Below, piece by piece: positions 8,501 to 42,910 of a stretch of 64,000 nt of DNA (positions are counted from its first letter, which is position 1; each line of letters begins with the position of its first letter). Below the pieces are notes generated by a model. It was not told the origin of the DNA. It worked only from the letters and a program-made list of their open reading frames with translations, and made no database searches. Source of the stretch: Myxococcota bacterium (GTDB lineage: Bacteria > Myxococcota_A > Bradymonadia > UBA4248 > JAVFAO01); assembly GCA_034002465.1 (NCBI GenBank), contig JAVFAO010000001.1, forward strand, positions 1,086-65,085, in the 5' to 3' direction. The position numbers and the translations under genes are program-made.

Positions 8501-9207
8501 CGCCGCGGCTTGGGTTGCGCCTTGGCTTTGGGAGGTGCTGGCAGGAAGACGGGAGAGTCCGGCAGTTTGTTGTCGATTGGGCTCTTCTCCTGTTCCCCCA
8601 AGTTTTGGTCGATTGGGCGCTTGGCCTGTTCCCCCAAGTTTTGGTCGATTGGGCTCTTCTCCTGTTCCCCCAAGTTTTGGTCGATTGGGCGCTTGGCCTG
8701 TTCCCCCAAGGTGGTGGCGGGGGTGACTGGGCTGCTTGGGGCTTCGTCAGCAGGAGAAGCCATCACGTCGGGGGGCTCAGGTGGGGATGCTAGCGCCTGC
8801 TCTGCGGTCTCCTCGAGAGCCGTCTCAACGAAAGGTGCCTCAGCGAAGCCTTCCTGTCGATCGGGCGCTTGGCCTGTTTCCCCAACTTTCTTGTTGAATG
8901 GGCGCTCGGCCTGTTGTCCCAACTTGTTGGGCTTCTCGTCTGCTTTGGGCATCGGGTGCAGCCGTGCACTTCCTGAGGCGCTCGCCAGCTTTTCATCGTC
9001 CGCCTGAAGTGCTGGGTCATCGACGATGGTGTCGAGGTCGTCGTGTTCGCTCCTGTCGGACATGGGCGCTCCGCGCTGTCGAGATGGACGATGGGGTCGG
9101 GGCTGAGCGTTGCGGGCTTTGGCGAGTATCGAGGGCTTGCCGCTGCGACGCTTCCGGATGCCGAGCTGCACCAAGAAGCCGGCGAACCATGATGCTTTGT
9201 GTACCAC
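5503..9207 (-). CDS. AsmA-like periplasmic domain fused to a GT51 peptidoglycan transglycosylase domain; cytoplasmic tail carries in-frame 36-bp repeats
   Basis: 1234 aa. C-terminal GT51 motifs EDGSFFSHQGFS, GASTISMQLVKN, EIYFNVIEFGPEIYGIREAARYYFGK and IIPNP. The central region is AsmA-like (ELPRIEKEL...GISGLSLHDVVLYD). There is one TM segment. The N-terminal tail has (LGEQ[AE]K[RS]PIDQN)n encoded by the repeat family. An alternative start is ATG at 9062. Confidence 0.8.
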   Translation of the reverse strand: MVHKASWFAGFLVQLGIRKRRSGKPSILAKARNAQPRPHRPSRQRGAPMSDRSEHDDLDTIVDDPALQADDEKLASASGSARLHPMPKADEKPNKLGQQAERPFNKKVGETGQAPDRQEGFAEAPFVETALEETAEQALASPPEPPDVMASPADEAPSSPVTPATTLGEQAKRPIDQNLGEQEKSPIDQNLGEQAKRPIDQNLGEQEKSPIDNKLPDSPVFLPAPPKAKAQPKPRRRGRLKKVLGISALLLVSLLFFAYLSAPFIGAHLLRNELPRIEKELGRRMDFGSLELHGISGLSLHDVVLYDKQGDTVFARCDTLRVDLSHSPLFGMDFQLSSILVDGLQIELRQNPDGSTNYADLQEKFEKIFEKKTPSGKPKKPSPYARYFKPLPPVELRNASISLQSPDFDANAAANTQHRFESLKQIRLQLHQPDLQSRVEFDAHAVATYVVSGQQFSQALSVTGGIKSKSDGTLRLSFDGGLVLPFAEQALGRAVRVGVVQLELPTTVLVEDLWIAGEHGFDDAVLTLDRGRALLTAIPPKKKGGVYVKETELYGLRAKLVIQDDGELAIADIIDKLSGKKTPFQALASRVGNKLESGARAGAGLPPKKVKPKGVRDYFVTQRLYLTDADLLIDDRRPNGVGLLRLDKLDFGFGYRGIRKRVEGELSFDVNGGAGGRFYTSATYSMLYNRIDIVVELEELLLRPIYRHLEANLQALSHADQSSSYADLALALLLSSVKLDDASIDSKLKFRLEFEKQRYRVGGRLALNQLEILAPSLSSMPIDALDLDLDFESTYDHKRESLQLKRFKLGLDEAELQMAFDIQPIVAQLDPSFGLKTSDESAFNLSLSIPPQPAQRLFEALPYAMRPALTGMRLGGEWGFELTAAGALNALSDMQLDTQVQLQDFNVEDWPADCDVSALNTGMSMRVRDPKALHEHRIVIPPSSHPSDDGVSFVPSHDDAQIREHYEHWTLYSDLSPWMVQMITTTEDGSFFSHQGFSTFQLKEALASNVDKGEFKRGASTISMQLVKNVFLGRQKTIARKLQEFFLTWLMESVVKVPKKRILEIYFNVIEFGPEIYGIREAARYYFGKQPADLSLREVAFLVAIIPNPRNGEGHRLRGELSPRLDKLMSWYIREMYRRKCDPERLAKLQRKYEKQGRAAPFQYCCPSPSTLEALQSEPLQFYRPAEFEPPYRPELYDERGQRLDSNAAPSCAFFEETEEAFEEPVLTELPMPE
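8566..8712 (-). repeat. 36-bp tandem repeat array, 4 units (family 1), inside the transglycosylase CDS
   Basis: Units TTGTCGATTGGGC[GT]CTT[GC][GT]CCTGTTCCCCCAAGTTT, period 36. The units alternate between two variants (ggcgcttggcc and ggctcttctcc). Confidence 0.9.
8854..8927 (-). repeat. Two degenerate family-1 units
   Basis: ctgtcgatcgggcgcttggcctgtttccccaac and ttgttgaatgggcgctcggcctgttgtcccaac; same orientation as the 8566 array. Confidence 0.7.
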
Positions 9208-9488
9208 ACTCGGCGCTTGTCAACCAAGCTGAGCGTGTGTGAACTTCGACAACGGCTCGTTTCGAGCAGTGCTTGGCGTCGGGAAGGGCGACGCCGAAGT
9301 GAGCCGAGCATTGAAGCTGCGGAATGGTCAATTGCGACAACGAGATCTGGCGCTGGGTGCAGTGAGTCTAGGGGCGATGGGCGAGATAGTGGCCGATTGG
9401 CGTAGAGGGGAGTAGAAGCGAGTCAGGGCCGCGATTGAGCTGCCGGATGGAGGACGCAATGGACAGCGCTGAGGGAACTTGGGCAGAA

Positions 9489-9562
9489 CATGGGGGAACA
9501 GGCCGAGCGCCCAATCGACAGGAACTCGGGGGACCAGGACAAGTGCCCAATCGACAAAGAAG
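9489..9562 (+). repeat. Family-1 repeat, 2 units, opposite orientation
   Basis: tgggggaacaggccgagcgcccaatcgacaggaac followed by tcgggggaccaggacaagtgcccaatcgacaaagaa. It lies in the divergent intergenic region between the transglycosylase and FGE genes. Confidence 0.85.
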
Positions 9563-9569
9563 TTTGGCG

Positions 9570-10673
9570 ATGGGCAGCAGCGCTCTGTTGAGCATTCTGG
9601 CGTTGCTATCACTGTTGGGTTGTACGCCTTCGACGCCTGCTCCGTCCCCAGCCTCACCTCAGACCGCGCGCGTTGAGAGTGTTCCAGAGGAAACACTGGC
9701 AGCTCAGGATGCTGAGCAGCCCGAGACGACTCCGATTGTGGCAGAAGCTGCCGATGTGCACGCTGAAGTGCCTCCGGAGGAGGTCGCGCCGCCGGAGCCG
9801 CCCGAGTTGATCGCGCCCACAGGCGAGCGCATCGTGGACTGCGAAGCTGCTCCCCAGGGGATGGCGTGTGTGCCCGGTGGGCCATTCATTCGCGGCATGG
9901 ACAATGACCCGCACGAGCATTGCGACCAACCGAGTTACAACAAGAAAGACCAGGTCAACACCAACCCTGCGGAAACAATCTGGATGCAGACCTACTACAT
10001 GGACCTCACCGAGGTGAGCACCGAGGCTTTTCAGGCCTGCATCAAGGCCAAGAAGTGTGAGAAGGCAGGGCCCAAGTACAACGATTTCAGTCGTCCGCTG
10101 CAGCCGGTGACGGGGATCAGCTGGTTCGATGCCTACAACTTCTGCAAAGCGCAGGGAAAGCACCTGCCGAGCGAGGCCGAGTGGGAGAAGGCCGCGCGTG
10201 GGCCCGATGGCGAGCTCTATCCGTGGGGAAACGAACCGGCTCCGAGCTGCGAGAACGCGGTGATCATGAACGAGAAAAAGGAGCGCTCCTGCGGTGTGCA
10301 GAAGAAGGGGGCGCATCCGGAAAAGGGGCGCGTGCTCGAGGTTTGCTCGCGTGAGCCTGGGCGCTACGGCTTGTGCGACATGGTGGGCAACGCGGAAGAG
10401 TGGGTCGCCGATTGGTACAGTGCGAACTACACGGCATGTGGAGAGGGGTGTCAGGGCTTCCATCCGCTCGGGCCGTGTGGTGGTGGCCCCGATGATTGCC
10501 AGGGGCACCGCTACAAGTTGGTGCGTGGTGGCTCTTGGTATTGGCCAGCCGAGCATGCGACCGGTATCCATCGCCGAAGCCATGTGGCCAGCAACGACCC
10601 TTATCACCACTTCGGTTTCCGCTGCGCTGCGAGCCCCGATGAGGCTGCCGCGCTGCGCCCTGCTGAGGAATAG
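9570..10673 (+). CDS. FGE-sulfatase (SUMF1/EgtB/PvdO-type) domain lipoprotein
   Basis: Lipobox LSLLGC after MGSSALLSILAL. Motifs GGPFIRGMDNDPHE, ISWFDAYNFCKAQGKHLPSEAEWEKAARG, GNAEEWVADWY, RGGSWY and FGFRCA. Confidence 0.85.
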   Translation: MGSSALLSILALLSLLGCTPSTPAPSPASPQTARVESVPEETLAAQDAEQPETTPIVAEAADVHAEVPPEEVAPPEPPELIAPTGERIVDCEAAPQGMACVPGGPFIRGMDNDPHEHCDQPSYNKKDQVNTNPAETIWMQTYYMDLTEVSTEAFQACIKAKKCEKAGPKYNDFSRPLQPVTGISWFDAYNFCKAQGKHLPSEAEWEKAARGPDGELYPWGNEPAPSCENAVIMNEKKERSCGVQKKGAHPEKGRVLEVCSREPGRYGLCDMVGNAEEWVADWYSANYTACGEGCQGFHPLGPCGGGPDDCQGHRYKLVRGGSWYWPAEHATGIHRRSHVASNDPYHHFGFRCAASPDEAAALRPAEE

Positions 10674-10700
10674 CGAGGCACAGCGTCCAAGCGCGGCTTC

Positions 10701-10805
10701 TTGTCGATTGGGCGCTTGGCCTGTTCCCCAGCTTCCTGTCGATTGGGCGCTTGGCCTGTTCCCCAGCTTCTTGTCGATTGGGCGCTTGGCCTGTTCCCCA
10801 GCTTC
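10701..10805 (-). repeat. Family-1 repeat array, 3 units (period 35)
   Basis: Three copies of ttgtcgattgggcgcttggcctgttccccagcttc, intergenic. Confidence 0.9.
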
Positions 10806-10957
10806 TTGTGCTCATCGTCCTCGTTGCTGGTGTCGAGCCGAGGAACGTGAGATGCTGAGGTCGGCTCGCCAGGGGCCGCGAGCACCTTCGAAGGCTCTCT
10901 TGGTTGAAGCTTGGTGTGCAGCTCAGCGCGTTCAACGAGAGCGTTCGCCCATCGATG

Positions 10958-11017
10958 CAAAAAGAGAAGGGATTCCAAAGGGTTCGCCCTTTGGTGGGGT
11001 GTGGGGCCGCGCCCCAC
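10958..11017 (-). repeat. Family-2 double-hairpin element (inverted orientation)
   Basis: caaaaagagaagggattCCAAAGGGttcGCCCTTTGGtggggtGTGGGGccgcGCCCCAC. Same element as at 41383, 26303 and 20962. Confidence 0.75.
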
Positions 11018-11117
11018 GAAGAGCAATCAAGCCTCTTGCAGGGGTAGCGTTTTGGAACAAGGCTCTGTCGTCAGCAGCGCAGGAACACGGGGCACTCAGT
11101 ACCCCAGCCAAGAGGAA

Positions 11118-11154
11118 CTGGGGGGAACAGGCCAAGCGCCCCATCGACAAGAAC
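11118..11154 (+). repeat. Family-1 repeat, single unit
   Basis: ctggggggaacaggccaagcgccccatcgacaagaac, 15 bp upstream of the rhomboid start. Confidence 0.85.
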
Positions 11155-11168
11155 TCATCGACGAAGGC

Positions 11169-12002
11169 ATGACACCTCGATTGCGTCGTTGGGACGACGA
11201 CGCCTTGCGCAGCTACGCCATGGAGATGGGCTTTGCGCGCCTCTTACAGCAGAAGGTGCCCGTAACCCACGCCTTGCTCGGCGCCTTGGCGGTGCTTTTC
11301 ATCGCAGGCATTTTTTTCTCCGATCTCTGGGTCGCACCTCGCTTTGGAGCACCAGAGGAGAGTGTCGAGGCGATGGTGGTGGTGGGGGCGAAGCTCAACG
11401 CCGAGATCAGTGCAGGGGCGTATTGGCGCTTGCTCACCCATACCTTTCTGCACGGCAGTTGGCTTCATCTTTTCTTCAATGGTTATGCTTTGTTGGTGCT
11501 TGGTTCAATCGTCGAGCGCCTCTTTGGCTCTCGTCGCTTCGTGATCATTTATGGTGGCGCGGCGCTCGCTGGTGCCTTCAGTTCATACTTCTTCAATGAT
11601 GTCGCCAGCGTCGGGGCGAGCGGCGCAATCTTCGGGGTTTTTGGAGCGGCGATTGTGTTTGGGTTCAAGCATCGCGCGAGTTTGCCGCCGCGCATTGGCA
11701 AGGCACTGACCACGCGTCTCTTGCCTTGGCTCCTTCTGAGCTTGGCTTTTGGGCTGCTCCCAATGATCGACAACGCTGCGCACTTTGGCGGTTTGGCGAT
11801 GGGGAGCCTGCTCGCCCTGGGCTTCGGAACGCCCTGGAAGCGCGAACCCAGTCCTCTGGTGATGCGCTTGCAGTTGGTGCTTGCAGCGCTCTTGGTCGCT
11901 GCGACCCTGGCGTCGTTTGCCTTCGGCCTGCGCCACGCCCGTGACTGCGTCTCTTCTGCCGATGCTTGGAAGCGATGCCAAAGCAGCCTGCGGGAACCGT
12001 GA
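11169..12002 (+). CDS. Rhomboid-family intramembrane serine protease
   Basis: Multi-TM protein with the GASGAIFG serine motif and a downstream AAHFGG histidine motif. Start chosen at ATG 11169, after the repeat unit. Confidence 0.8.
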   Translation: MTPRLRRWDDDALRSYAMEMGFARLLQQKVPVTHALLGALAVLFIAGIFFSDLWVAPRFGAPEESVEAMVVVGAKLNAEISAGAYWRLLTHTFLHGSWLHLFFNGYALLVLGSIVERLFGSRRFVIIYGGAALAGAFSSYFFNDVASVGASGAIFGVFGAAIVFGFKHRASLPPRIGKALTTRLLPWLLLSLAFGLLPMIDNAAHFGGLAMGSLLALGFGTPWKREPSPLVMRLQLVLAALLVAATLASFAFGLRHARDCVSSADAWKRCQSSLREP

Positions 12003-12883
12003 AGCAGCTCAGTCTCGATTTCCCAGCCGAGCAGAGCGACAGCGCTCCACGCTCCAAGAGGCGCCGTGAATGGCTGCCAAAGGCTCAACCTTTCCTGAAG
12101 TGGGCCGGCGGGAAGCGTGCGCTGCTGCCTGAGTTGCGCAAGCGGGTTGGCAAGTTCCCGGGGCGATACTTCGAGGCGTTTCTTGGTGGCGCAGCGCTCT
12201 TCTTCGAGCTCGCACCTCGGAAAGCGGTTTTGAGCGACGTCAACCTTCGGCTCGTGCGCTGCTACCGCGCGCTGCGCGATGACGTGGAGGGGCTGATTGG
12301 GCTATTGACCGAGCATGCTCAGCAGCATTGCAAGGAACACTACTACGCGGTGCGGGCGCTCGACGTGGATCGCTGCAGCGACGTCGAGCTCGCCGCTTGG
12401 TTGATCTACCTCAATCACACGTGTTTCAATGGTCTCTACCGGGTCAATAAGTCGAACCGATTCAACGTCCCGATGGGGCGCTATGTCAATCCGACGATCT
12501 GCAACGCGCCGCTCTTGCGTGCTTGCTCGACAGCGCTGAAGCATTGCGAGATTGAGCACCTCGACTTTCAGAGCCTCAGTGAACGACCAAGGGCTGGCGA
12601 CGTGGTCTACTTCGATCCGCCGTATGTTCCATTGAGCGCATCGTCCTCCTTCACCAGCTATTCGCAGGAAGGCTTCACTGACGCTGACCAGGTTCGTCTG
12701 CGCGACACCGCGCTGGAGCTGAAGCGGCGCGGTGTCCGGGTCATCCTGTCGAACGCTTGGGCGCCTCGTGTGCTCGAGCTCTACGCGCCTCCCGCCTTCC
12801 GCGTCAGCCAAGTCATGGTCCCGCGAATGGTCAACAGCAAAGCTTCGGGGAGAGCACCGGTGCCCGAGGCCCTCATCGTCTGA
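11966..12883 (+). CDS. dam: DNA adenine methyltransferase, Dam family
   Basis: Motifs FLKWAGGKRALL (SAM binding) and VVYFDPPY (DPPY catalytic motif). Overlaps the rhomboid 3' end by 37 bp. Confidence 0.75.
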   Translation: MEAMPKQPAGTVKQLSLDFPAEQSDSAPRSKRRREWLPKAQPFLKWAGGKRALLPELRKRVGKFPGRYFEAFLGGAALFFELAPRKAVLSDVNLRLVRCYRALRDDVEGLIGLLTEHAQQHCKEHYYAVRALDVDRCSDVELAAWLIYLNHTCFNGLYRVNKSNRFNVPMGRYVNPTICNAPLLRACSTALKHCEIEHLDFQSLSERPRAGDVVYFDPPYVPLSASSSFTSYSQEGFTDADQVRLRDTALELKRRGVRVILSNAWAPRVLELYAPPAFRVSQVMVPRMVNSKASGRAPVPEALIV

Positions 12884-13115
12884 TGCTCGTTGGGTCGCGA
12901 CGGTTGAGCTGTTGCTTGGCGAAGACGCGCGAAGGCGCGCCACTGCGGACCCATCTGGACCATCCGGTTCCGCGCAGGGTTGCCAAGCTTGGTCTGGAAG
13001 GCTAGGCTATGCCACGCTCGGGACGCCTCAGCCCCATCTGCGGAGGCCCTCCGAACAGCCGTGAGCGCGAATCCTGGCGCTCGCTCTCCAACAACGACAC
13101 GAACTCGGAGATAGC

Positions 13116-13658
<543 letters not shown>

Positions 13659-13801
13659 GCATCTCAACCAACGGCGGTCTTGAAGGGAAATGCCTCGAAG
13701 GGGGCTGCCCCTGGTCGGGCACCAGGAACCGCGCCAAGACGAATGCCCGAGCGCATGTACCTCCAGTTTCCAGATTTCGCTCGCTTTCAAAGGGCGCGCA
13801 T

Positions 13802-14749
13802 ATGTTTGCTTTGCTCTGCTCGCTGAGCTCCACAACAACTTGGGGGAGCAGGCCAAGTGCCCAATCGACAAGAACTTGGGGGAGCAGGCCAAGGGCCCAA
13901 TCGACAAGAAATTGGGGGAGCAGGCCAAGTGCCCAATCGACAAGAAATTGGGGGAGCAGGCCAAGTGCCCAATCGACAAGAAGTCGAAGGCTGCCACTGC
14001 GACTGCTGAGCGCCGTCTCAGCCGTCGTGTTGTGCGCGTTGCTCGGGTCCAACGCCTGGTGCGAAGAGCTGCCTGCATCGGAGCAGCCTCCGCTACCCGT
14101 CTCAGAAGCCTTCGAGGAGCGCCTGGCACTGGGCTTCGTCGTCGGCCTCAACCGCTCCATCCTCACTGCGCCCGAGGACGCTGTGGGTGAAGCGCAGTTC
14201 ATGAGCGGCACCGCGTTCAATGGCTTTGGCGTCTCTTTTGGGCCCAGCGCGCGCTTCGGCATCCTCCCTTTCCTGGCCTTGCGCCTGGAGCTGCTCTTCT
14301 CGCTCGATCGCGCGACGGGCTACGAGAAGCTGGGTGAACAATCCCGCGAGCTCGAGCTCTCGACTTGGCGTCTACGCGTGCCCGTGCAGATCCTTGGCGG
14401 CTATGACTTCGGCTTTCTCCGACTCGACCTGGGGCTTGGCCCCGAGTTGGCGCTACCGCTCACCGTCGACGCCACACTCGAGGAGAAGAACATCCCCATC
14501 GAGGCGAGTTTTCCGCTGAGCGTGAGCGCTGGCGCTAGTTTTGGTTTGCGAATGAGCGCTGGCGTTGCCGTCGAGCTGGGAGAAGGGCTTTTTCTGCCAA
14601 GCAATGTTCATCTAAGCTGGTTTCCGGGAGTGCCCGATACTAGCCGAGAGCGCTTCGAGGGCTTCCAGTCTATGACTCAGCCTGGAAAGCTGCGGGTCGA
14701 GTACCAGTGGTGTGTTCTCTGGGATATCGGAATCAGCTACGAGCTGTGA
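13802..14749 (+). CDS. Putative outer-membrane beta-barrel-like secreted protein (start uncertain)
   Basis: ORF ends ..WDIGISYEL with alternating beta-strand-like segments. The signal-like segment LPLRLLSAVSAVVLCALLGSNAWC lies after the repeat array and has no in-frame ATG, so the true start is probably non-ATG near 13985. Confidence 0.5.
   Translation: MFALLCSLSSTTTWGSRPSAQSTRTWGSRPRAQSTRNWGSRPSAQSTRNWGSRPSAQSTRSRRLPLRLLSAVSAVVLCALLGSNAWCEELPASEQPPLPVSEAFEERLALGFVVGLNRSILTAPEDAVGEAQFMSGTAFNGFGVSFGPSARFGILPFLALRLELLFSLDRATGYEKLGEQSRELELSTWRLRVPVQILGGYDFGFLRLDLGLGPELALPLTVDATLEEKNIPIEASFPLSVSAGASFGLRMSAGVAVELGEGLFLPSNVHLSWFPGVPDTSRERFEGFQSMTQPGKLRVEYQWCVLWDIGISYEL
13840..13983 (+). repeat. 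Family-1 repeat array, 4 units
   Basis: ttgggggagcaggccaag[tg]gcccaatcgacaagaa[ac], period 36. Overlaps the 5' part of the longest ORF of the next gene. Confidence 0.9.
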
Positions 14750-20961: not shown

Positions 20962-20998
20962 CCAGAAGGGCTAGCCCTTAGGAATCCTTTTCTTTCTC
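20962..20998 (+). repeat. Family-2 element, partial copy
   Basis: ccagAAGGGCTAGCCCTTaggaatccttttctttctc; hairpin 2 and the T-rich tail only. Confidence 0.65.
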
Positions 20999-26144: not shown

Positions 26145-26189
26145 GCGTCACTCGTTGCTGCTCTGGGCCCTTTTGGGGTGATGGATTTC

Positions 26190-26226
26190 GTGTCGATTGG
26201 GCGCTTGTCCTGTTCCCCCAAGTTGT
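26190..26226 (-). repeat. Family-1 repeat, single unit
   Basis: gtgtcgattgggcgcttgtcctgttcccccaagttg. Confidence 0.85.
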
Positions 26227-26302
26227 TGTGTGCCATCCCTGGCACGCATTCTTCGGGCTGCCATCGCAGCGAGTCTCTGCCTCCTGGCTTCGACTTGTCT
26301 TG

Positions 26303-29479: not shown

Positions 29480-29573
29480 CTCGGTCGGATGACAATTTTC
29501 CCAGTGTTCTCCGATGTTTTTCGCCTGAATCAGAGCGCACGCTTGGTCGGCGAGATGGCTGTTTCCCGAGGGC

Positions 29574-31196: not shown

Positions 31197-31360
31197 GGCC
31201 ATGCAAAGAGGCAGCGAAGGTGCATACCCGGTCATGAAGCGGGGGCATAGCTCGAGAGCGGGCGACTGCATTGACGAGGACGGAGCAGCGGGGCATTGAG
31301 GTGATGGGCTCTGAACGCGGACGGTGTGGCTCTTGGTGAGCGGCGTTCGATGGACAAAGC

Positions 31361-34300: not shown

Positions 34301-34468
34301 GCAGATTCGCGACGCAAGCCCTCGCCGGTGGAGCGTGTTGCGATACCCGAAGCGGATCGGAGTGCTCCTCGCGCGTTTCGTGAGGACATTCTCGAGGCGA
34401 TGAAGCAGCAGGCCATACCTGGATACGAAGATGAAGCCAAGCTCTACTATCAATCCCTCATTGAGTAG
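31361..34468 (+). CDS. DUF4175-like large membrane-anchored coiled-coil protein (paralog of 3062-5254)
   Basis: 1035 aa. Two N-terminal TM helices, IELIPPAYSG, long coiled-coil segments, and the C-terminal motif IPGYEDEAKLYYQSLIE resembling VPPGYRHYVERYFDFI of the first paralog. Confidence 0.65.
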   Translation: MQDLVAIRALLFLVRRELLRRRALEVGAYSFLALAASLTLWWLSSPSGLVWGLLAWASLLVAVLVPSWLLLWPAWWRTRSEQGTARELERFEPAFRDDLSTSLQFSALLQQQPESAQVLGARAELARAQIRHSAQRARRYAMQASTLFVRHKLVGVSAAGLTLSVVLLFGSALYPSRSSELLSLFLGNAERALQIVGFHSVDEPPTERPLVGQLHIELIPPAYSGLHSRQFFNSTGDFELLKGTELRFEGKLLEDADAVTLVFEGNDGTQLEQAMLCEGSSVSGSFVALHSGWYRFRLRSSSSGILEHDLRRRLDVVPDMAPSVVIDAAASSVEVTADEMLAFRIRAFDDYGLSAIELELAIEGAQTPAKVVKVARLSRQSNWADEVQLELSEMALQPKDVLVVHALAWDNDEVSSPKSSRSAPVYLRVSSPEDRHEALLRAEESMLDDLLLLLADELEAPLQADEPGQAPSEGQRVAEQELGERLASASFLSDRRAEVLRAMASLGEMLAADGLMLRRDVELFEHLRQVMSQMQSKAGLQLERLALLHAAGQLHEEELRVYTRMHRLPQIEQTERALILLKEMVLSQWMDAAQLTVNSIHERIERLRALALQLETVNDPRLRAEMEAEMARLQRELDELLGRLAQQSEKLPSEHVNAEAMKASDARKLASRAEEMRQLLDEGRIEDVLSMLDELDAELQSMLAVADQYTSAGGSATSRMDEQASAFLDSVNDLAEAQAGLEKRGQRLRDAMRERIRAEHSVELDGLSQRQSRRLAALGRQLHALDAQVPGDMAVSSARRVLEQAQQLNEAGDLDGLRQAIERFRERQSEAQAEALDAYFDAEPGSPERVAARERESAWRQMDELSQMIEGELDSASRALQVEPSPDDHDEMLEQQQVQRALRDSAGELGEQLGQMADAFPAMAEQLQPHFEEAVGFMRSAEEELGEATLGEALEAERQALRSLQAMKRQLQQNLQKERMADSRRKPSPVERVAIPEADRSAPRAFREDILEAMKQQAIPGYEDEAKLYYQSLIE

Positions 34469-36044: not shown

Positions 36045-36178
36045 TGAAGGGCGCCCATCCTTGCGCCATTCCGAAGGCGTGCAGCTTTCGAGCGCATGCG
36101 CTTCGACGTCTGCAAACAGAAGCCTGTCTTTCGCTAGCTTCGGTGGTGTCCCGATAACAAGCCGTTTGGGAGAGCGAT

Positions 36179-36436
36179 GTGGATGCGGAGTTGACGCTCG
36201 AGCTGTTTCGACACGCTCTGGTTTTGACCTTGCTTCTGGCCTTACCACCGCTGCTGGCGATTTGGTTGTTGGCGTGGCTCGTTGGGGCGCTGCAGGCGGT
36301 GCTTGGGATTCCCGATGCTTCCTTGGGGATGGTGCCGCGCTTCGTTTTGGCGCTCTTGGCTTGGGCGGCATCGCTGCCCTGGATCATGGCGGAGTTGTCG
36401 GCCTTTTCGCTGCTTCTCTTCGACTATGCGCTGTAA
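36179..36436 (+). CDS. FliQ/SctS-like two-helix membrane mini-protein (orphan)
   Basis: 85 aa. ALPPLLAIWLLAWLVGALQAVLGIPDASLGMVPRFVLALLAWAASLPWIMAEL parallels FliQ (..APLLL..LQAATQI.E.TL.FIPK...PWM..) in length and topology. Codon usage is coding-like. Confidence 0.45.
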   Translation: MDAELTLELFRHALVLTLLLALPPLLAIWLLAWLVGALQAVLGIPDASLGMVPRFVLALLAWAASLPWIMAELSAFSLLLFDYAL

Positions 36437-36439
36437 GCT

Positions 36440-38356
36440 TCAGGGGAGCTCGTCACAGCCTTCGGGGATGGCGAGCTCTCGGCGGAAGCTGTGCTGGTTG
36501 AGGGTGGATTTCTTTTCGATTGGGCGCTTGTCCTGTTCCCCCAGGTTGTTTGCACGCAGCCAGGTCCAGGTTCCGGATTCGGTGCAGGCATCTGCTTCGA
36601 GGCCGTAAGTTTCGACGCTGATACGGCGGCTCGCGACGAGTTGGAGCGCGTCGAGGCCACGGGGGCGAACCTTGAGCTCGACGTGGATGGAGACCTTGGT
36701 GGGGTCGGTGAAGTAGCGATCGCAGGCTTCGAAGTTGTGTTCGAAGATGGGCTGAGGGCCGGTCTCGCTGAGGACGATACGATTCCAGGAGAGGCGGACC
36801 TTGTGCTTCGACTTGCCGGTGGCGAGCAGGTCGGCTTCGAAGTCTTGGCTGAGGGCCCGAATGTCGTTTGCGTTTGGGAATTCGAGCTCCTTGTCGAGCT
36901 TGAAGCTTTGTTCTGCTCCGCTCGAGTCGGTGCGGCTGAGCAGCAGGGGCTTGTGTTCTGCGGTGCTGTAGTACCAGCGGCGGATGACGCGTCGGTCGCG
37001 TTGTTCGCTCTCGAGACGGCCCATGACGTTACAGGGTTTCTCTTTGTATATTGCGTTCTTGGCGTACGCGGGTTGGCGATCGCGCGTCAGGCTCGCCTGG
37101 GTCTCTTCGACCACATAGAGCTCGCCCTTGGGGCTTGGCCAGTGTTGGACTGCAACGCGTTGCTCACTTTGTTCGCGTTGCTCTGGCTTTCCGCTTTGGC
37201 TCCAAAGCTTGGTTTCACTTTGACGTTCGAAGAAGCCGTGCGCGTTGAGCTCGAGCAGGTGCTGACGAGATTCGCCGCTCAGCGCTTGGTCGCCATCGGG
37301 TTCTAGCTGTTTGCCGTAGTCGAGCTGGATGTGGAGTCGTGGAGCGGTGGTCTCGGGGAACAGGCGAAGCTGCCCGGTGCGCAGGTCATCATCGTTGTTT
37401 TCGAATCGAAATCGCGCGATGGGGGCGAGCTCTGGCCAGGGCTCGTCGCTCTGTGGGTCGAGCTTGGTCTTGGGCGTGGGCAGGCCGAGGGGAGCGTCGA
37501 GCAGCTGGCGTTGGGCCAGTTGGGGATTGTTGGAGAGGGCGTTGAGCGGGTCGATGCGCAGGCCTTGCGTCGAGAGGGTGAGCAGCTCGCTGCCTTCGAG
37601 CTCGGGATAGAGGTCCCACTCGATGAACAGGGGCGAGGTGGCGTTGATGGTTTGGACCAGCTTGGGCTCGGCGGCGGGTGGGAGCGGTGAGAAGGGAGGC
37701 AGCTCAACGAAGCATGCTTGGGTTTCAGAGAAAGCGTAGAGGATGGGTTGTGTAGAGAGAACCAGAAGCACTGGAGGATCGCTGGGGAAAAGCCAACTGT
37801 CCCCCTCGGATGGGGCCACGCAGGGGGAGCCCTCTGGCAGCGGTGGCACAGGCATGAAGGGTCTTGACTCTGGCAAGGCGAGCCAACGTTCTTGTCGATT
37901 GGGCGCTTGGCCTGTTCCCCCAAGTTCTTGTTGATTGGGCACTTGGCCTGTTCCCCCAAGTTCTTGTTGATTGGGCACTTGGCCTGTTCCCCCAAGTTCT
38001 TGTTGATTGGGCACTTGGCCTGTTCCCCCAATGACTTCGCCGAGCTCACCGGGCTGCACGAAGCGTTCGGCGAGGGCTTGGTTGCAGGCGGCCCAGGCAG
38101 GGCTGGCGGGTGGATAGATGAGGGTGAACGCAGGGGCTGGTGGTGCTTCGGCGAGGTCTTCGGTGGCTGGCTCAGGAGGTGGAGCTTGGACGGTGTCTGT
38201 GAGGGGCTGCTCGGCAGTGGTATCTGTTTGGGGAGCGTTCTGCTCTGGGGGCGGTGTTGGGGCTTGTTCCTTGGGTGTGCATCCGAGGACGGTGGCAATG
38301 CCAAGGGTGACGGCGAGGCTCACGGCAACGCGGCGGGGGTGAGGGGAGCTAGACAT
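36440..38356 (-). CDS. Hypothetical lipoprotein carrying in-frame family-1 repeat insertions
   Basis: Start MSSSPHPRRVAVSLAVTLGIATVLGC (lipobox). Contains (GTGQVPNQQELG)x4 from the array at 37891-38030 and NLGEQDKRPIEKK from the unit at 36514. The longest ORF extends to 38692. Confidence 0.6.
   Translation of the reverse strand: MSSSPHPRRVAVSLAVTLGIATVLGCTPKEQAPTPPPEQNAPQTDTTAEQPLTDTVQAPPPEPATEDLAEAPPAPAFTLIYPPASPAWAACNQALAERFVQPGELGEVIGGTGQVPNQQELGGTGQVPNQQELGGTGQVPNQQELGGTGQAPNRQERWLALPESRPFMPVPPLPEGSPCVAPSEGDSWLFPSDPPVLLVLSTQPILYAFSETQACFVELPPFSPLPPAAEPKLVQTINATSPLFIEWDLYPELEGSELLTLSTQGLRIDPLNALSNNPQLAQRQLLDAPLGLPTPKTKLDPQSDEPWPELAPIARFRFENNDDDLRTGQLRLFPETTAPRLHIQLDYGKQLEPDGDQALSGESRQHLLELNAHGFFERQSETKLWSQSGKPEQREQSEQRVAVQHWPSPKGELYVVEETQASLTRDRQPAYAKNAIYKEKPCNVMGRLESEQRDRRVIRRWYYSTAEHKPLLLSRTDSSGAEQSFKLDKELEFPNANDIRALSQDFEADLLATGKSKHKVRLSWNRIVLSETGPQPIFEHNFEACDRYFTDPTKVSIHVELKVRPRGLDALQLVASRRISVETYGLEADACTESGTWTWLRANNLGEQDKRPIEKKSTLNQHSFRRELAIPEGCDELP
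36514..36549 (-). repeat. Family-1 repeat, single unit
   Basis: ttttcgattgggcgcttgtcctgttcccccaggttg. Confidence 0.85.
37891..38030 (-). repeat. Family-1 repeat array, 4 units
   Basis: ttgt[ct]gattgggc[ga]cttggcctgttcccccaagttc, period 36; the last unit is truncated. Confidence 0.9.
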
Positions 38357-40116: not shown

Positions 40117-41373
40117 ATGGATCCTATTGTCATTATCGTGGGCGTGGTCGTAATTGCCGTTCTCTTTGCTGCAATGGCGATTCGCAACGTGATCTTCATT
40201 TGTCCACCCAACAAGGCCATTATCTTCAGTGGCTCCCGAAGCGTTGGTCCTGACGGCAGGAAGTTGGGCTACCGGATTGTCCAGGGCGGTCGTGGGATTC
40301 GTATCCCGCTCTTCGAGAGCTTCGATGAAATCGATCTGAGCAACATGATCATCGACGTGAGCACGAACAACGCCTATTCACGAGGCGGGATCTCGCTCAC
40401 CGTGCATGCGGTGGCAAACATCAAGGTTGCGGGTATGCAGCCGAGGCTCGACAACGCCATTCAGCGCTTGTTGGGCAAGAGTCGGCAGGAGATCATGGGC
40501 ATTGCACGCGAGACCCTGGAGGGCAACCTGCGTGGGGTGTTGGCCAAGCTCACGCCGGAAGAAGTGAACGAAGACCGTGTCAGCTTCGAAAAGAACCTTC
40601 TCGAGGAGGTCGATCACGATCTGTCGATGCTTGGGCTTGCCTTGGACACACTGACCATTCAGAGTGTCTCGGATGAGTCGGGTTACTTGGCTTCCATTGG
40701 ACGTCAGCGCAATTCTCAGCTCATGCGCGACGCGCGCATTGCAGAGGCGAAGGCGCAAGCGCAGGCGGCAGTGCGGGATGCCAAGAACCGAGAAGACCGA
40801 TTGATCGCGCAGTTCGAGGCGGACATGCGGATAGCTCAGGCCCAGGCAGAGCGCAGGATTTCCGAAGCGCAAGCCAAGGGACGCGCGATGGTGGCCGAAG
40901 CCAATGCGGATATCGCCGCGCAGAAAGCGCGCGCCGAGGCAGAGCTGAGCGTTCAGGTTCAGCGCATCGAGCAGGTTCGCCGCCGCCTGATGGCGGACGT
41001 GCTCGAGCCAGCTCAGGCCGCGCTGAGCACCATGCAGGCCGACGCGATTGGTCAGTCATCCTCGATTCTCGAGGACGGTCGGGCGAAGGCAGAGGCCTTC
41101 CGGCAGTTGGTGAAGACCTGGAAGAACGCAGGTCCCCATGCCAGGGAGATCTTCCTCGGCCACAAGCTCAACGTGCTCTTGGATACGATCATGAGCACTG
41201 TGCAGCACATCGAGATCGAGAAGATGACCGTCATCGACGCGCGGCTTTCCGCGGTTGATGTGAACGGCTCCTTGCCGATGAAGACCCTGAGCGCAGTGGA
41301 ACAGCTCAAGCAGACCATCGGCTTGGATTTGGCAGACTTGGTTCAGACTTGGAGCGCAGCCAAGAAGGCCTAG
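40117..41373 (+). CDS. Flotillin-like SPFH/band-7 protein (second paralog)
   Basis: SD gaggaggaaggcATG. N-terminal TM. ISLTVHAVANIKVAGMQPRLDNAIQRLLG .. LEGNLRGVLAKLTPEEVNEDR, with a coiled-coil C-terminus. Paralogous to the preceding gene. Confidence 0.85.
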   Translation: MDPIVIIVGVVVIAVLFAAMAIRNVIFICPPNKAIIFSGSRSVGPDGRKLGYRIVQGGRGIRIPLFESFDEIDLSNMIIDVSTNNAYSRGGISLTVHAVANIKVAGMQPRLDNAIQRLLGKSRQEIMGIARETLEGNLRGVLAKLTPEEVNEDRVSFEKNLLEEVDHDLSMLGLALDTLTIQSVSDESGYLASIGRQRNSQLMRDARIAEAKAQAQAAVRDAKNREDRLIAQFEADMRIAQAQAERRISEAQAKGRAMVAEANADIAAQKARAEAELSVQVQRIEQVRRRLMADVLEPAQAALSTMQADAIGQSSSILEDGRAKAEAFRQLVKTWKNAGPHAREIFLGHKLNVLLDTIMSTVQHIEIEKMTVIDARLSAVDVNGSLPMKTLSAVEQLKQTIGLDLADLVQTWSAAKKA

Positions 41374-41382: not shown

Positions 41383-41442
41383 GTGGGGCTCTGCCCCACG
41401 CCCCGCCAAAGGGCTAGCCCTTTGGAATCCCTTCTCTTTTTC
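41383..41442 (+). terminator. Family-2 double-hairpin element; candidate bidirectional terminator between convergent genes
   Basis: GTGGGGCtctGCCCCAC gccccg CCAAAGGGCtaGCCCTTTGG aatcccttctctttttc. Two perfect hairpins followed by a T-rich run. Confidence 0.5.
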
Positions 41443-41496
41443 GTATCGCTCGGCGACTCCTCTTGGGTCCCACGCCTCGACATTAGTGAGACTGCG

Positions 41497-42780
41497 CTAG
41501 TGAGACTGCGCTGGCGCTGCGGCCTTGGCCACTGGCATGGGCGGTGGTGGCGGTGGCACGAGCAGCTCGGAGTTGGGGCTTTGGGCCCGACTCTCTTCGA
41601 TTTCGCGCACTTGCCTGCTCCACTCGGCGATAGCCTGCTCCTCCTGGCGCAGTGCGCTTTCATCGTCCATGTACTGCCGCAATCGTTGCAGTCGCTCGTC
41701 ACTGGCAGTGGCCCATTCGTTCTCGATGCCCAGTCTGACGCTGGTCTTGGCCGTTGTTTCGTAGGCGATCAGGGCTTCGTCGAGCAGTGGTCTGAAATCC
41801 TCTCTGAGCGCCAGGAAGTAGTCCCTGAGCTCCTCGCCCTCAAGCTCTGGCGGGACCTCGGCGGTGAGCAGATCGTAATAGAAATCCTCGAATAGTTTTC
41901 CGACCATGTACCCAGAGAGTATTCCCCAGAAGTGATTCCTCTGGTTGACTGTGTCGATGTAGGCGGAATACGCCGATTTGGCGAGTGAGCGCTTGACCTC
42001 GAGGTCTTCCTTCATGCGCTCTTCGGGCAGTCGGAAGCGGATGCGCGAGAAGCGCAGGTGGTAGGCGAGGGCGATGCCGTAGTAGGCACCGGAGACGAAG
42101 TAGTGGGTGTTGGCGATGCGCGCGGTGCCTGCGAGTCGGTTGCGCTTGAGACTTGCTCGGAAGCTCTGTTCGGCGTCGTCGTACTGACCCAAGGCGATTT
42201 GGGCCATCCCGAGTCGGTAGGATGCCTCGGTCTTGTCGAGATGGCGCAGGTCTTCGCGCTCGAGCAAGCGCTGCATGTGGGTGGCGACCCGTTCCCAGTT
42301 GCTGCTGTTGGCGTCACATTCGGCGAGTCGGAAGGTGGCGTCGAGGGCGTCACGGGAATTGGCTTGCAGCGCGAGCAAGCGGAGGTAGCGCTCGGCTGCG
42401 AGCTCCCAGTTAGCGAGCTGCTCGTGGCAAAGGCCCGCGTTGTAGATGCTGGCGATTTCGTATTCGGAGCCTGGAAGGTTTTGCCAAAGGGTGTCGAAAT
42501 TTCGGGCACAATCCTGGTAGGCTGCGTCGTCGAGTTCTTGTCGTGCTTGGGCGAAGAGCTGGTCGGCGTTGACAGTGCGCACCTCATCATTGACGCGAAT
42601 GAGGAATTCGGCGTCGAGGGCCATCTTCTGGACGGGCACAGGGGCGGAAGCGCAGCCGAATGCAGCGAGGGAGATGGCGAAGCTGAGGCGCAGCAGCGCC
42701 ACTCGAGCAGCGTTGGAGCACGGGCTGCAGCCGGGTGTTGGAGGGATGCGTGTCCAACGGTGGACTTCGCGTTGTTGCAT
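41497..42780 (-). CDS. TPR-repeat lipoprotein
   Basis: Start MQQREVHRW.. with lipobox ISLAAFGC. Several TPR-like helix pairs. Pro-rich C-terminus. Confidence 0.6.
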   Translation of the reverse strand: MQQREVHRWTRIPPTPGCSPCSNAARVALLRLSFAISLAAFGCASAPVPVQKMALDAEFLIRVNDEVRTVNADQLFAQARQELDDAAYQDCARNFDTLWQNLPGSEYEIASIYNAGLCHEQLANWELAAERYLRLLALQANSRDALDATFRLAECDANSSNWERVATHMQRLLEREDLRHLDKTEASYRLGMAQIALGQYDDAEQSFRASLKRNRLAGTARIANTHYFVSGAYYGIALAYHLRFSRIRFRLPEERMKEDLEVKRSLAKSAYSAYIDTVNQRNHFWGILSGYMVGKLFEDFYYDLLTAEVPPELEGEELRDYFLALREDFRPLLDEALIAYETTAKTSVRLGIENEWATASDERLQRLRQYMDDESALRQEEQAIAEWSRQVREIEESRAQSPNSELLVPPPPPPMPVAKAAAPAQSH

Positions 42781-42803
42781 GGCTTCCTCAGTGGGACATT
42801 TTT

Positions 42804-42910
42804 TGTTGATTGGGCGCTTGGCCTGTTTCCCCAAGTTTTTGTCGATTGGGCGCTTGGCCTATTCCCCAAGTTTTTGTCGATTGGGCGCTTGGCCTGTGTT
42901 CCCAGCTTCT
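42804..42910 (-). repeat. Family-1 repeat array, 3 units
   Basis: ttgt[tc]gattgggcgcttggcct[ga]tt[tc]ccccaagttt, period 35-36. It overlaps the stop region of the 42859-44898 gene and sits 24 bp upstream of the 41497-42780 gene start. Confidence 0.9.

What the first reader, a model, noticed from the sequence alone, without database searches (positions are those of the whole stretch)
8566..42910. Interspersed 35-36 bp head-to-tail repeat family (about 28 units at 11 loci, both orientations)
Consensus is TTGGGGGAACAGGCCAAGCGCCCAATCGACAAGAAC (or its reverse complement TTGTCGATTGGGCGCTTGGCCTGTTCCCCCAAG). It occurs at 8566-8712 (4 units), 8854-8927 (2 degenerate), 9489-9562 (2), 10701-10805 (3), 11118-11154 (1), 13840-13983 (4), 26190-26226 (1), 36514-36549 (1), 37891-38030 (4) and 42804-42910 (3). 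Units are contiguous with no spacers, so this is not CRISPR. The period is exactly 36 in most arrays and 35 at 10701 and 42840. Each unit contains a short internal inverted repeat (TTGGG..CCCAA) and a TTGGCC-type palindrome. Copies lie in intergenic regions, at gene 5' and 3' boundaries, and inside ORFs. About 1.5 percent of the window is this element, which is far above chance. I cannot assign it to a described repeat family from memory. It behaves like a REP/MITE-like or protein-bound repeat that expands by unit duplication.
Basis: seen in the sequence. Interest (0 to 1): 0.8.

Follow-up and report, generated by a model that had tools for sequence, protein, structure and literature searches.

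The report
Twelve-codon repeat inserted into genes
An uncultured Myxococcota genome is peppered with a 36-base repeat that multiplies head-to-tail and sits, nearly always in the sense direction, in front of genes and in frame inside them, adding 12-amino-acid blocks even to loops of kinases.

Summary
There are 25 units at 10 loci (8.5-43 kb), against none in shuffles. The window is a contig of the MAG "Myxococcota bacterium" RBU37. The same unit recurs on its other contigs, about one locus per 8 kb, in roughly 80 of its predicted proteins, and on a few contigs from other metagenomes. I found it in no phage, plasmid, viral or reference-genome collection.

It is a DNA-level element, not a protein motif. 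It is read in three frames, also lies in non-coding DNA, and has 35- and 37-bp periods.

It is not REP- or MITE-like. It forms no significant hairpin and has no terminal inverted repeats or target duplications.

Units have fixed ends (TTGGGGG...ACAAGAAN). Units within an array are more alike than units between arrays, which indicates local amplification. Fifteen of 16 unambiguous loci are sense to the host gene.

A homologue of one host gene has clean 44-aa and 12-aa gaps exactly at the arrays. Removing arrays in silico restores contiguous kinase and HisKA domain matches.

Best reading: a lineage-specific, probably selfish, tandemly amplifying insertion module, tolerated because its sense frames encode hydrophilic peptides. 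It resembles MIRU (dispersed minisatellite) and RPE (in-frame insertion) but belongs to neither.

The parts
8566..8709 (-). Four units of period 36, translated in frame 1 (LGEQAKRPIDQN / LGEQEKSPIDQN). They lie in the N-terminal cytoplasmic tail of the 1186-aa transglycosylase/DUF748 protein (CDS 5503-9063, minus strand).
   Evidence: Both NCBI and JGI call the CDS from ATG 9063. The region upstream of the arrays has coding-type GC1/2/3 of 0.68/0.40/0.72 in the same frame.
8850..8922 (-). Two degenerate units with 37-bp spacing in the same N-terminal tail. The first is read in frame 1 (LGQQAERPFNKK) and the second in frame 3 (GETGQAPDRQE).
9490..9561 (+). Two units in sense orientation, ending 8 nt before ATG 9570 of an FGE-sulfatase-type lipoprotein. 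NCBI includes them in the CDS (404 aa); JGI does not (367 aa).
   Evidence: The array is reproduced in Logan contig L008.
10697..10802 (-). Three units of period 35 in the intergenic region between two plus-strand genes. This is the only locus antisense to both neighbours.
11119..11154 (+). A single unit in sense orientation, 14 nt upstream of ATG 11169 of a rhomboid protease. NCBI's 316-aa model reads through it; JGI's 277-aa model starts after it.
13840..13983 (+). Four units read in frame 2 (WGSRPSAQSTRT). They lie between the only upstream start codons (ATG 13802, TTG 13811) and the signal-peptide region of an unknown secreted protein.
   Evidence: The 43%-identical homologue P0170 has an ordinary N-terminal signal peptide and no repeat.
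26186..26221 (-). A single unit in the gap between convergent genes. It is sense to the minus-strand gene 26367-27179.
26222..26296 (-). Module X, a structured module of about 75 nt with two hairpins (GCTGC-GATG-GCAGC and GTGCCA-GGGA-TGGCAC). It abuts the 5' end of the unit here. It also abuts units at four other loci (L001, L005, L006, L009); in four of the five loci it lies directly 5' of a unit in the same orientation, and in L005 it abuts the 3' end of the array in inverted orientation.
   Evidence: It folds with z = -2.3 (sense) and -3.5 (antisense).
36509..36544 (-). A single unit read in frame 1, forming a 12-codon in-frame insertion near the C-terminus of lipoprotein gene E (36440-38356, minus strand).
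   Evidence: Homologue P0171 has a 12-residue gap exactly here, with conserved residues on both sides. The unit is reproduced in Logan contig L007.
37888..38031 (-). Four units read in frame 3 (GGTGQVPNQQEL), forming an in-frame insertion in the region after the lipobox of gene E.
   Evidence: Homologue P0171 has a 44-residue gap exactly opposite the array, with alignable sequence on both sides.
42799..42905 (-). Three units (spacings 35 and 36) bridging two co-directional genes. The upstream gene (42859-44898) reads into the array and stops at a TAG inside it. The TPR gene's ATG (42780) lies 19 nt after the array.

Best explanation
The 36-bp unit is a discrete DNA module, 5'-TTGGGGGAACAGGCCAAGCGCCCAATCGACAAGAAN-3'. 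It belongs to a lineage-specific, high-copy family of dispersed repeats in one uncultured Myxococcota lineage, with an extrapolated several hundred loci.

Shown: the module arrives at new sites as whole units with a constant phase. It then multiplies locally head-to-tail. It is found almost only in the sense orientation of the host gene, and many copies are clean in-frame insertions into coding sequence.

Inferred: copies land preferentially next to ACAAGAAC-like sequence, through microhomology or target preference. Arrays grow and shrink by slipped-strand mispairing or unequal recombination. The element is essentially selfish or neutral. It survives where it does no harm, namely 5' leaders, gene junctions, N- and C-terminal tails, linkers and surface loops. 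The likely reason is that all three sense frames are open and encode hydrophilic, Gly/Pro/Gln/Lys-rich peptides (LGEQAKRPIDKN, WGNRPSAQSTRT, GGTGQAPNRQEL), whereas the three antisense frames encode hydrophobic ones.

Side effects are remodelled protein termini and loops, displaced or ambiguous start codons, and broken short-read assemblies. The enzyme or process that disperses units is unknown.
For: Real and non-random.

Same genome, many contigs: the window is a contig of MAG RBU37. Eleven more loci lie in 68 kb of its other contigs. About 34 proteins carry the unit, and about 45 more; all ten of the latter that were looked up, bar one, belong to this MAG.

Other samples: contigs L001 and L002 of metagenome Ga0116164, ENA contigs carrying P0029 and P0031, and a 1.2-kb JGI contig carrying P0177.

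DNA-level, not peptide-level: the three sense frames are all used in real CDSs. Periods of 35, 37 and 52 bp occur, the 35- and 52-bp ones only in non-coding arrays and the single 37-bp spacing inside a CDS, where it simply switches the reading frame.

Discrete unit: all 24 arrays start at TTGGGGG and end at ACAAGAAN. The left flank resembles the unit's 3' octamer, at 5.1/8 matches against a 1.9/8 background, with 0 of 20000 resamples as high.

Local amplification: units within an array differ by 2.9/36 and units between arrays by 5.6/36, with 0 of 5000 permutations as extreme.

Sense bias: 15 of 16 loci that lie inside a CDS or between co-directional genes are sense. My binomial calculation gives p of about 5e-4.

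Insertions relative to homologues: P0171 shows 44-aa and 12-aa gaps exactly at the two arrays of gene E. P0170 lacks the array of gene D.

Insertions into folded domains: deleting 48 aa from kinase P0182 changes its Pkinase match from profile positions 22-256 (73.5 bits) to 1-256 (89.0 bits). Deleting 60 aa from histidine kinase P0177 changes its HisKA match from 2-36 to 2-58. CheW, Maf and tRNA-synt_2 domains are cut mid-domain by arrays at contig ends.

No structure or known family: fold z-scores run from +0.2 to -1.8, and Rfam gives nothing even at E<=1.
Against: No mobilising enzyme was identified, and no recent, polymorphic insertion was seen, so mobility is inferred from distribution only.

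All genome-scale evidence comes from one short-read MAG, so copy numbers of long arrays may be wrong.

Sense bias also holds for non-coding copies between co-directional genes. By my count from the gene tables that is 5 sense and 1 antisense among the counted loci, or 7 to 1 if the two Ga0116164 loci L001 and L002 are added. Peptide-level selection does not obviously explain this. Clustering within about 50 nt of start codons could point to a function in mRNA rather than neutrality.

In two divergent intergenic regions (L005 10067-10210, L006 10001-10144) the array is antisense to the nearest gene.

The dominance of frame 3 among protein hits is partly an ascertainment effect, because the query was frame 3.
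Confidence: 0.6

Rival explanations
1. The unit is a cis-acting mRNA element. Sense-oriented arrays in 5' leaders and early coding regions would modulate translation or mRNA fate, for example through the Shine-Dalgarno-like GGGGGAA repeated in tandem as a ribosome standby or sequestering site, or as a binding platform for an RNA-binding protein.
For: Sense bias holds for non-coding copies too. Many arrays end 5-40 nt before a start codon or lie just after it. Examples are the genes at 9570, 11169, 13802 and 42780, plus L002, the L006 UDG and M48 genes, and L004 10294. Each unit carries GGGGGAA, and the common AAGTG variant even creates a GTG start that JGI used for the UDG gene.
Against: The RNA has no significant secondary structure and no Rfam match. 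Equally many copies sit deep inside CDSs, at C-termini, in 3' regions and between convergent genes. The native SD-like sequence usually lies in the flank downstream of the array rather than in the unit. The element is absent from homologues in other lineages.
Confidence: 0.12
2. The arrays are contingency (VNTR) loci kept by selection. Rapid gain and loss of 12-codon units would tune linker length in surface and signalling proteins, and 35-bp units would shift frames to switch genes or start codons on and off.
For: Within-array homogenisation implies ongoing slippage. Hosts are enriched in lipoproteins, kinases, histidine kinases, CheA/CheW and a TonB receptor. Arrays sit exactly where start codons are chosen. 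MIRU loci behave this way in mycobacteria (PMC3635867).
Against: No copy-number polymorphism could be examined, because the Logan contigs come from the same data. Hosts also include housekeeping proteins such as Era, RNase E/G, UvrD-like helicase and Maf. Most loci have 1-4 units only.
Confidence: 0.1
3. The unit is a binding site on DNA for a lineage-specific DNA-binding protein, such as a nucleoid-associated protein or transcription factor, with arrays acting as multi-site platforms.
For: The 19-nt core CAGGCCAAGCGCCCAATCG is very well conserved, with several invariant positions across 57 units. The units occur in tandem.
Against: Orientation tracks gene direction rather than replication. 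Four plus-strand and six minus-strand loci lie in a window with uniformly positive GC skew. Many sites are deep inside CDSs. No dyad symmetry was found. No candidate protein lies nearby.
Confidence: 0.05
4. It is a protein-level repeat or short linear motif, conserved because the peptide is functional.
For: Frame 3 (GGTGQAPNRQEL) dominates in large proteins.
Against: The same DNA is read in three frames, sometimes within one protein (P0174, P0176, P0201 and the gene at 5503-9063). Copies lie in non-coding DNA and in 35-bp periods. Nucleotide identity is the same whatever the frame.
Confidence: 0.03
5. It is an assembly or contamination artefact.
For: Contigs often end in arrays. Five of 24 arrays have exactly 4 units, about 144 nt and close to read or k-mer length.
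Against: The short arrays are reproduced by a second assembler. Units are diverged and array-specific. Arrays of 5-9 units are assembled elsewhere. The unit is present in other metagenomes. Insertions keep reading frames.
Confidence: 0.02

Closest known systems
MIRU (mycobacterial interspersed repetitive units; dispersed bacterial minisatellites)
   Same: Both are short units found as head-to-tail arrays of one to several copies at many dispersed loci. Both lie between genes of operons and overlap neighbouring ORF ends, and both are thought to be co-transcribed (PMC3184786 section 9; PMC3635867). From my own knowledge of Supply et al. 1997, not checked here, MIRUs are also co-oriented with flanking genes. 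Here 15 of 16 loci are sense, and the array at 42799-42905 bridges two genes and supplies the upstream gene's stop codon.
   Different: The unit here is 36 bp, against 40-100 bp for MIRU, and there is no sequence relationship. The density is far higher, about one locus per 8 kb against about 40-50 per genome. There is no imperfect TIR and there are no flanking tetranucleotide direct repeats. Many copies are in-frame inside conserved protein domains. The phylum is different.
RPE (Rickettsia palindromic elements)
   Same: Both are selfish-looking repeats inserted in frame into unrelated protein-coding genes. Both add a peptide segment at positions compatible with the fold (PMC10969869 section 4.2; PMC3184786 section 15). 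Here this is shown by homologue gaps and by domain restoration after in-silico excision.
   Different: RPEs are about 100-150 bp, palindromic, single-copy per site, and read in one frame per family. This unit is 36 bp, not palindromic, amplifies in tandem, and is used in all three sense frames.
REP/BIME elements of proteobacteria
   Same: Both are of similar unit size (about 35 bp), occur in hundreds of copies, and show mosaic association with other short modules. Here those are module X, a terminator-like module Y and a 99-nt module.
   Different: REPs are extragenic imperfect palindromes tied to RAYT transposases. This unit has no significant hairpin and is frequently intragenic, and no RAYT was seen in the window.
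Neisseria REP2 and other repeats fused to ORF ends
   Same: Both are located immediately upstream of genes or fused to the 5' or 3' ends of ORFs, and both confound start-codon annotation (PMC3184786 sections 11, 15).
   Different: REP2 carries a promoter, an RBS and an ATG. Here a sigma-70 scan finds no promoter in the units, and the start codons and SD sequences mostly belong to the flanks.

Membership tests
REP / BIME | Imperfect palindrome forming a stable stem-loop | tested here: not met
   A single unit folds with z = -0.4 (sense) and -0.2 (antisense). Arrays give z from +0.2 to -1.8 against dinucleotide shuffles.
REP / BIME | Extragenic location | tested here: not met
   Many copies lie inside CDSs in frame.
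REP / BIME | Associated RAYT (IS200/IS605-like Y1 transposase) in the genome | tested here: inconclusive
   Pfam scans of the window's ORFs found none. The rest of the MAG could not be scanned.
MITE | Terminal inverted repeats | tested here: not met
   The unit ends, TTGGGGG and ACAAGAAN, are not complementary. The inverted-repeat search returns only copies in opposite orientation.
MITE | Target-site duplications flanking each insertion | tested here: not met
   The left flank and right end are not identical at any of 24 arrays. The right end always matches the consensus, and the left flank only resembles it.
MIRU-type dispersed minisatellite | Tandem arrays of one short unit at many dispersed loci | tested here: met
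   There are 24 arrays of 1-6 units in 132 kb, and up to 9 units in P0001.
MIRU-type dispersed minisatellite | Same orientation as adjacent genes; intergenic within operons with ORF overlap | tested here: met
   Fifteen of 16 loci are sense. The array at 42799-42905 bridges two genes. In L004 the ORF through the array ends 4 nt into the next gene.
MIRU-type dispersed minisatellite | Sequence homology to mycobacterial MIRU classes; occurrence in Mycobacterium | not tested
   No MIRU sequence was compared here. The host genome is a Myxococcota MAG. I treat the element as an analogue of MIRU, not a member.
MIRU-type dispersed minisatellite | Copy-number polymorphism between strains | not testable with these tools
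   Only one dataset was available. The Logan contigs are identical to the window.
RPE | In-frame insertion into unrelated protein-coding genes | tested here: met
   Homologue gaps of 44 and 12 aa fall at the arrays. Pkinase and HisKA matches are restored by in-silico excision.
RPE | Palindromic element of about 100-150 bp with a family-specific conserved peptide in one frame | tested here: not met
   The unit is 36 bp, has no palindrome and uses three frames.
CRISPR | Repeats separated by unique spacers | tested here: not met
   Start-to-start spacing equals unit length, 35-37 bp.
Protein tandem-repeat domain | Copies confined to coding sequence in one reading frame | tested here: not met
   Three frames are used, and copies also lie in non-coding DNA and in 35-bp periods.

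The most novel reading that the evidence does not exclude
The unit may be the payload of a so far undescribed, transcription-oriented copy-and-paste process. A candidate is an RNA or single-stranded DNA intermediate templated by 'master' copies in which the structured module X directly precedes the units. Such a process would insert exact 12-codon blocks into expressed genes. The element would then act as a natural linker-insertion engine that has remodelled more than 1% of this organism's proteome, including loops of kinase and histidine-kinase domains.
Probability: 0.15. Interest if true: 0.8.

Novelty: new variant of a known kind. Interest (0 to 1): 0.6.

Why it matters
If confirmed in a closed genome, this would be a second clear case, after the Rickettsia RPEs, of repeated DNA colonising protein-coding genes on a large scale. 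It would also differ from RPEs in that the insert is a 12-codon block that amplifies in tandem and is read in any of three frames.

It would give a natural map of insertion-tolerant sites in kinases, histidine kinases, transporters and housekeeping enzymes.

It raises a mechanistic question that can be tested: why nearly all copies are sense to transcription, and what disperses them.

There are practical consequences too. The element breaks short-read assemblies of this lineage. It makes NCBI and JGI disagree on start codons for several genes in this window, and it generates dozens of spurious 'hypothetical proteins'.

Tried and rejected
- **Reference genomes.** I treat these as uninformative rather than as proof of absence.
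- **Metagenome scan.** It gave only two small contigs. Viral contigs, plasmids and phages gave nothing.
- **Rfam.** No match at gathering thresholds or at E<=1.
- **Exact-protein look-ups.** Five of the twelve found no gene on record: two for the window's rhomboid protein (the window translation and its JGI entry P0035) and three for NCBI-annotated repeat proteins of the MAG. The Logan contigs that were retrieved turned out to be the same data as the window. No strain comparison or copy-number polymorphism test was therefore possible.
- **Target-site-duplication model** (8-bp linker as duplicated target). Rejected, because left and right flanks are never identical.
- **Sigma-54 and sigma-70 promoter readings.** Rejected. 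By inspection, the spacing of the sigma-54-like TGGCAC...TTGG at the junction of module X and the first unit is wrong. The sigma-70 scan found no sites in 8400-14100.
- **All six frames open as evidence of design.** Rejected. By my estimate about 11% of random 36-mers at this GC content would have no stop codon in any frame.
- **Replication-strand bias** (IS200/IS605-like behaviour). Rejected, because both orientations occur within one uniformly GC-skewed window.
- **Literature strings.** The unit DNA and peptides appear in no paper of the searched library.

Full report
**Observation**

The consensus TTGGGGGAACAGGCCAAGCGCCCAATCGACAAGAAC matches 13 times with up to 3 mismatches, against 0 in 100 shuffles. 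Tandem Repeats Finder reports period-36 arrays at 8564-8710, 13832-13982 and 37883-38031. It reports period-35 arrays at 10696-10809 and 42800-42903. A looser core scan gives 25 units at 10 loci between 8.5 and 43 kb, and none elsewhere in the window. The units total 900 nt, 1.4% of the window. Units are contiguous, with 35-37 bp start-to-start spacing, so this is not CRISPR.

**Source**

Exact-sequence look-ups show that the window is part of a 77,906-bp contig of the MAG "Myxococcota bacterium". Its locus tags are RBU37_, its GenBank proteins are MDX97191xx, and it is also held as JGI 3300044603 and Logan SRR25572339. Two Logan contigs are 100% identical to window 8856-10724 and 26440-37916. 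They reproduce the one- and two-unit loci and end inside the longer arrays. The repeats are therefore real, but copy numbers of long arrays are less certain.

The gene content is ordinary chromosomal. It includes MoxR/DUF58, a GT51 transglycosylase, an FGE-type lipoprotein, a rhomboid protease, a Dam-type methylase, a cyclophilin, an M14 peptidase, radical SAM enzymes, kinases, ClpP and trigger factor. There is no transposase, RAYT or integrase.

**Distribution**

A query made of the three sense-frame translations found 34 proteins among 5.8 billion. Nearly all are from this MAG, and two are from ENA contigs.

An exhaustive phmmer search with the lipoprotein gene at 36440-38356 returned about 45 further proteins that match only through the array. 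All ten that I looked up, bar one, belong to this MAG.

Four other contigs of the MAG (68 kb) carry 11 more loci. Leaving out the four loci that were the reason for fetching those contigs, the density is about 17 loci in 132 kb. That is roughly one per 8 kb, which extrapolates to several hundred per genome.

A different JGI metagenome (Ga0116164) has the unit on two small contigs.

Scans of viral contigs, plasmids and phages found nothing. No paper in the searched library contains the sequence.

**Anatomy**

Across 57 units the 19-nt core CAGGCCAAGCGCCCAATCG is nearly invariant. Variation is concentrated at positions 19 (C/T), 28 (G/A), 33 and 36.

All 24 arrays begin at TTGGGGG and end at ACAAGAAN, so they share one phase. 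That indicates a discrete module rather than repeats that arose in place.

The 8 nt to the left of each array resemble the unit's own 3' octamer ACAAGAAC. The mean is 5.1 of 8 matches against a background of 1.9, with 0 of 20000 resamples as high. Left flank and right end are never identical, so these are not target-site duplications.

Units within an array differ by 2.9/36 on average and units from different arrays by 5.6/36. None of 5000 permutations is as extreme, which is the signature of local amplification.

Neither strand folds better than shuffled sequence. A single unit gives z = -0.4 and -0.2, and arrays give z from +0.2 to -1.8. Rfam has no match even at E<=1. A sigma-70 scan finds no promoter-like site in 8400-14100.

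The unit is sometimes joined to other short modules:
- Module X is a structured module of about 75 nt that abuts units at five loci, including window 26222-26296. At four of them it lies directly 5' of a unit in the same orientation; at L005 it abuts the 3' end of the array in inverted orientation. It folds with z = -2.3 to -3.5.
- A terminator-like module also recurs (see Noticed in passing).
- A module of about 99 nt encodes VSEARHESASVAGASDAPAQRCEGLARANECKP when translated.

**Relation to genes**

All six frames of the unit are open. The sense frames encode LGEQAKRPIDKN, WGNRPSAQSTRT and GGTGQAPNRQEL. The antisense frames encode hydrophobic peptides such as FLSIGRLACSPK.

In the window:
- The arrays at 8566-8709 and 8850-8922 lie in the N-terminal tail of the transglycosylase. 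They are read in frames 1 and 3. The region upstream has coding-type GC3 in the same frame, and both annotation pipelines include them.
- 9490-9561 ends 8 nt before a lipoprotein ATG, and 11119-11154 ends 14 nt before the rhomboid ATG. NCBI includes each in the CDS and JGI does not.
- 13840-13983, read in frame 2, separates the only available start codons from a signal peptide. The 43%-identical homologue P0170 has a normal N-terminal signal peptide and no repeat.
- 37888-38031 (frame 3) and 36509-36544 (frame 1) lie inside one lipoprotein gene.
- 42799-42905 links two co-directional genes and supplies the stop codon of the upstream one.
- 10697-10802, with period 35, is the only locus antisense to both neighbours.

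Counting only loci inside a CDS or between co-directional genes, in the window and in L004-L006 and L009, 15 are sense and 1 is antisense. My binomial calculation gives a two-sided p of about 5e-4.

Orientation does not follow replication. GC skew is positive across the whole window, while four loci are on the plus strand and six on the minus strand.

Periods of 35 and 52 bp occur only in non-coding arrays. The single 37-bp spacing lies inside a CDS and simply switches the reading frame.

**Proof of in-frame insertion**

Aligning the lipoprotein with its 30%-identical homologue P0171, which comes from other organisms, gives two clean gaps in P0171. One is a 44-residue gap exactly opposite the four-unit array, with alignable sequence on both sides. 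The other is a 12-residue gap, one unit long, opposite the single C-terminal unit. The conserved C-terminus resumes after it.

Elsewhere in the MAG:
- Kinase P0182 has four units between its GxGxxGxVY motif and its VAIK motif. Deleting those 48 residues changes the Pkinase match from profile positions 22-256 (73.5 bits) to 1-256 (89.0 bits).
- Histidine kinase P0177 has five units after its H-box helix. Deleting 60 residues extends the HisKA match from positions 2-36 to 2-58.
- CheW, Maf and a class II tRNA-synthetase-like domain are cut mid-domain by arrays at contig ends.

Other hosts include Era, RNase E/G, a UvrD-type helicase, a TonB-dependent receptor, CheA, a DsbD-like protein, methyltransferases and many kinases. 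The arrays are usually in tails or linkers. Sometimes two arrays in different frames sit in one protein.

**Interpretation**

The data show a lineage-specific DNA module with four properties. It is dispersed as whole units and amplified locally. It is almost always in the sense orientation. It is frequently a clean in-frame insertion.

My preferred model is inference. Dispersal would be by an unidentified copy-and-paste process that favours ACAAGAAC-like sites. Growth would be by slippage or unequal recombination. Survival would be limited to places where the encoded hydrophilic peptide or the extra leader sequence is harmless. I put this at about 0.6.

Its weakest point is that sense bias and proximity to start codons also hold for non-coding copies. 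That keeps two rivals alive: an mRNA-level role (0.12) and a selected contingency-locus role (0.10). A DNA-binding platform (0.05), a protein motif (0.03) and an artefact (0.02) are poorly supported.

**Comparison with known elements**

The element behaves like MIRUs in four ways. It is a dispersed minisatellite, it is co-oriented with genes, it lies within operons, and it overlaps ORF ends (PMC3184786 section 9; PMC3635867; the co-orientation of MIRUs is from my own knowledge of Supply et al. 1997). It behaves like Rickettsia RPEs in making large-scale in-frame insertions into unrelated genes (PMC10969869; PMC3184786 section 15).

It is a member of neither family. It has no palindrome, TIR or direct-repeat flanks. 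Its unit is 36 bp. It amplifies in tandem inside genes, uses three frames, and comes from a different phylum.

It fails the defining tests for REP/BIME, MITE and CRISPR.

I rate it a new variant of a known kind, of moderate-to-good interest. The rating is limited because the evidence rests on one short-read MAG and no mechanism has been shown.

Noticed in passing
window 41383-41441 (+), 10959-11017 (-), 26300-26352 (+, partial), 20966-21004 (+, partial); L005 1810-1861 and 14380-14405; L006 6907-6955: A second interspersed family, about 59 nt long. It has two GC-rich hairpins (GTGGGGC..GCCCCAC and CCAAAGGG..CCCTTTGG) followed by AATCCCTTCTCTTTTT, so it looks like an intrinsic terminator. The copy at 41383 sits right after the stop of the gene at 40117-41373. 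The copy at 10959-11017 is in the wrong orientation for both of its neighbours.
   Followed up: partly
window 26222-26296 (-); L001 168-246; L005 10210-10283; L006 5947-6021; L009 2316-2395: Module X is a structured repeat of about 75 nt with a sharp 5' boundary, and it contains AGCCAGGAGGCG. It is always adjacent to 36-bp units. At L005 it is inverted relative to the array. It could be a 'master' form of the element or a separate module.
   Followed up: partly
L006 15127-15330; L005 about 4790 onward; proteins P0009, P0031, P0186, P0193, P0196: A third module of about 99 nt translates as VSEARHESASVAGASDAPAQRCEGLARANECKP. It is often next to the 36-bp units and is tandemly duplicated inside an FHA-domain protein. 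It also forms N-terminal extensions of Era GTPase and a UvrD-like helicase.
   Followed up: partly
window 9447-9570, 11052-11169, 13802-14039, 38356 vs 37770: NCBI and JGI choose different start codons for at least five genes next to arrays: the FGE-type lipoprotein, the rhomboid protease, the gene at 13802, the lipoprotein at 36440 and the TPR gene at 41497. Many short 'hypothetical proteins' of this MAG are just ORFs running through arrays.
   Followed up: yes
window 22145-22312: These are imperfect 15/18-bp tandem repeats (CTGTTGTGGGTACCCCTG). They encode a QQGYPQ-type low-complexity tract in the C-terminal part of the Ser/Thr kinase gene 21923-23437 (minus strand). They are unrelated to the 36-bp family.
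   Followed up: partly
window 3358-3750: Repeats of 9, 12 and 27 bp lie inside the 730-aa ORF 3062-5254 (minus strand), which has no Pfam match. They encode a GEKGEQGEKGEQ / Lys-Glu-rich tract.
   Followed up: partly
L009 168-12696: Module X plus a 6-unit array with a higher-order 88/124-bp structure sits between tube and sheath genes of a contractile-injection-system (phage-tail-like) operon. It is in the sense orientation.
   Followed up: no
L002 1-1975 (metagenome Ga0116164): A single unit lies at the very 5' end of a ParB-like gene, which appears to be followed by an integrase-like gene. Both identifications are from my reading of the translated sequence and were not checked against Pfam. 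This is the only place where the unit was seen next to a possible mobile-element gene pair.
   Followed up: no
window 45175-53934 and 60744-63518: There is a 2919-aa TPR-rich giant protein, and a 924-aa protein with five STIG1-like cysteine-rich repeats (internal 531-bp duplication at 61468/61999). Neither carries the 36-bp unit.
   Followed up: no
Absence from reference genomes is therefore not established.
   Followed up: no
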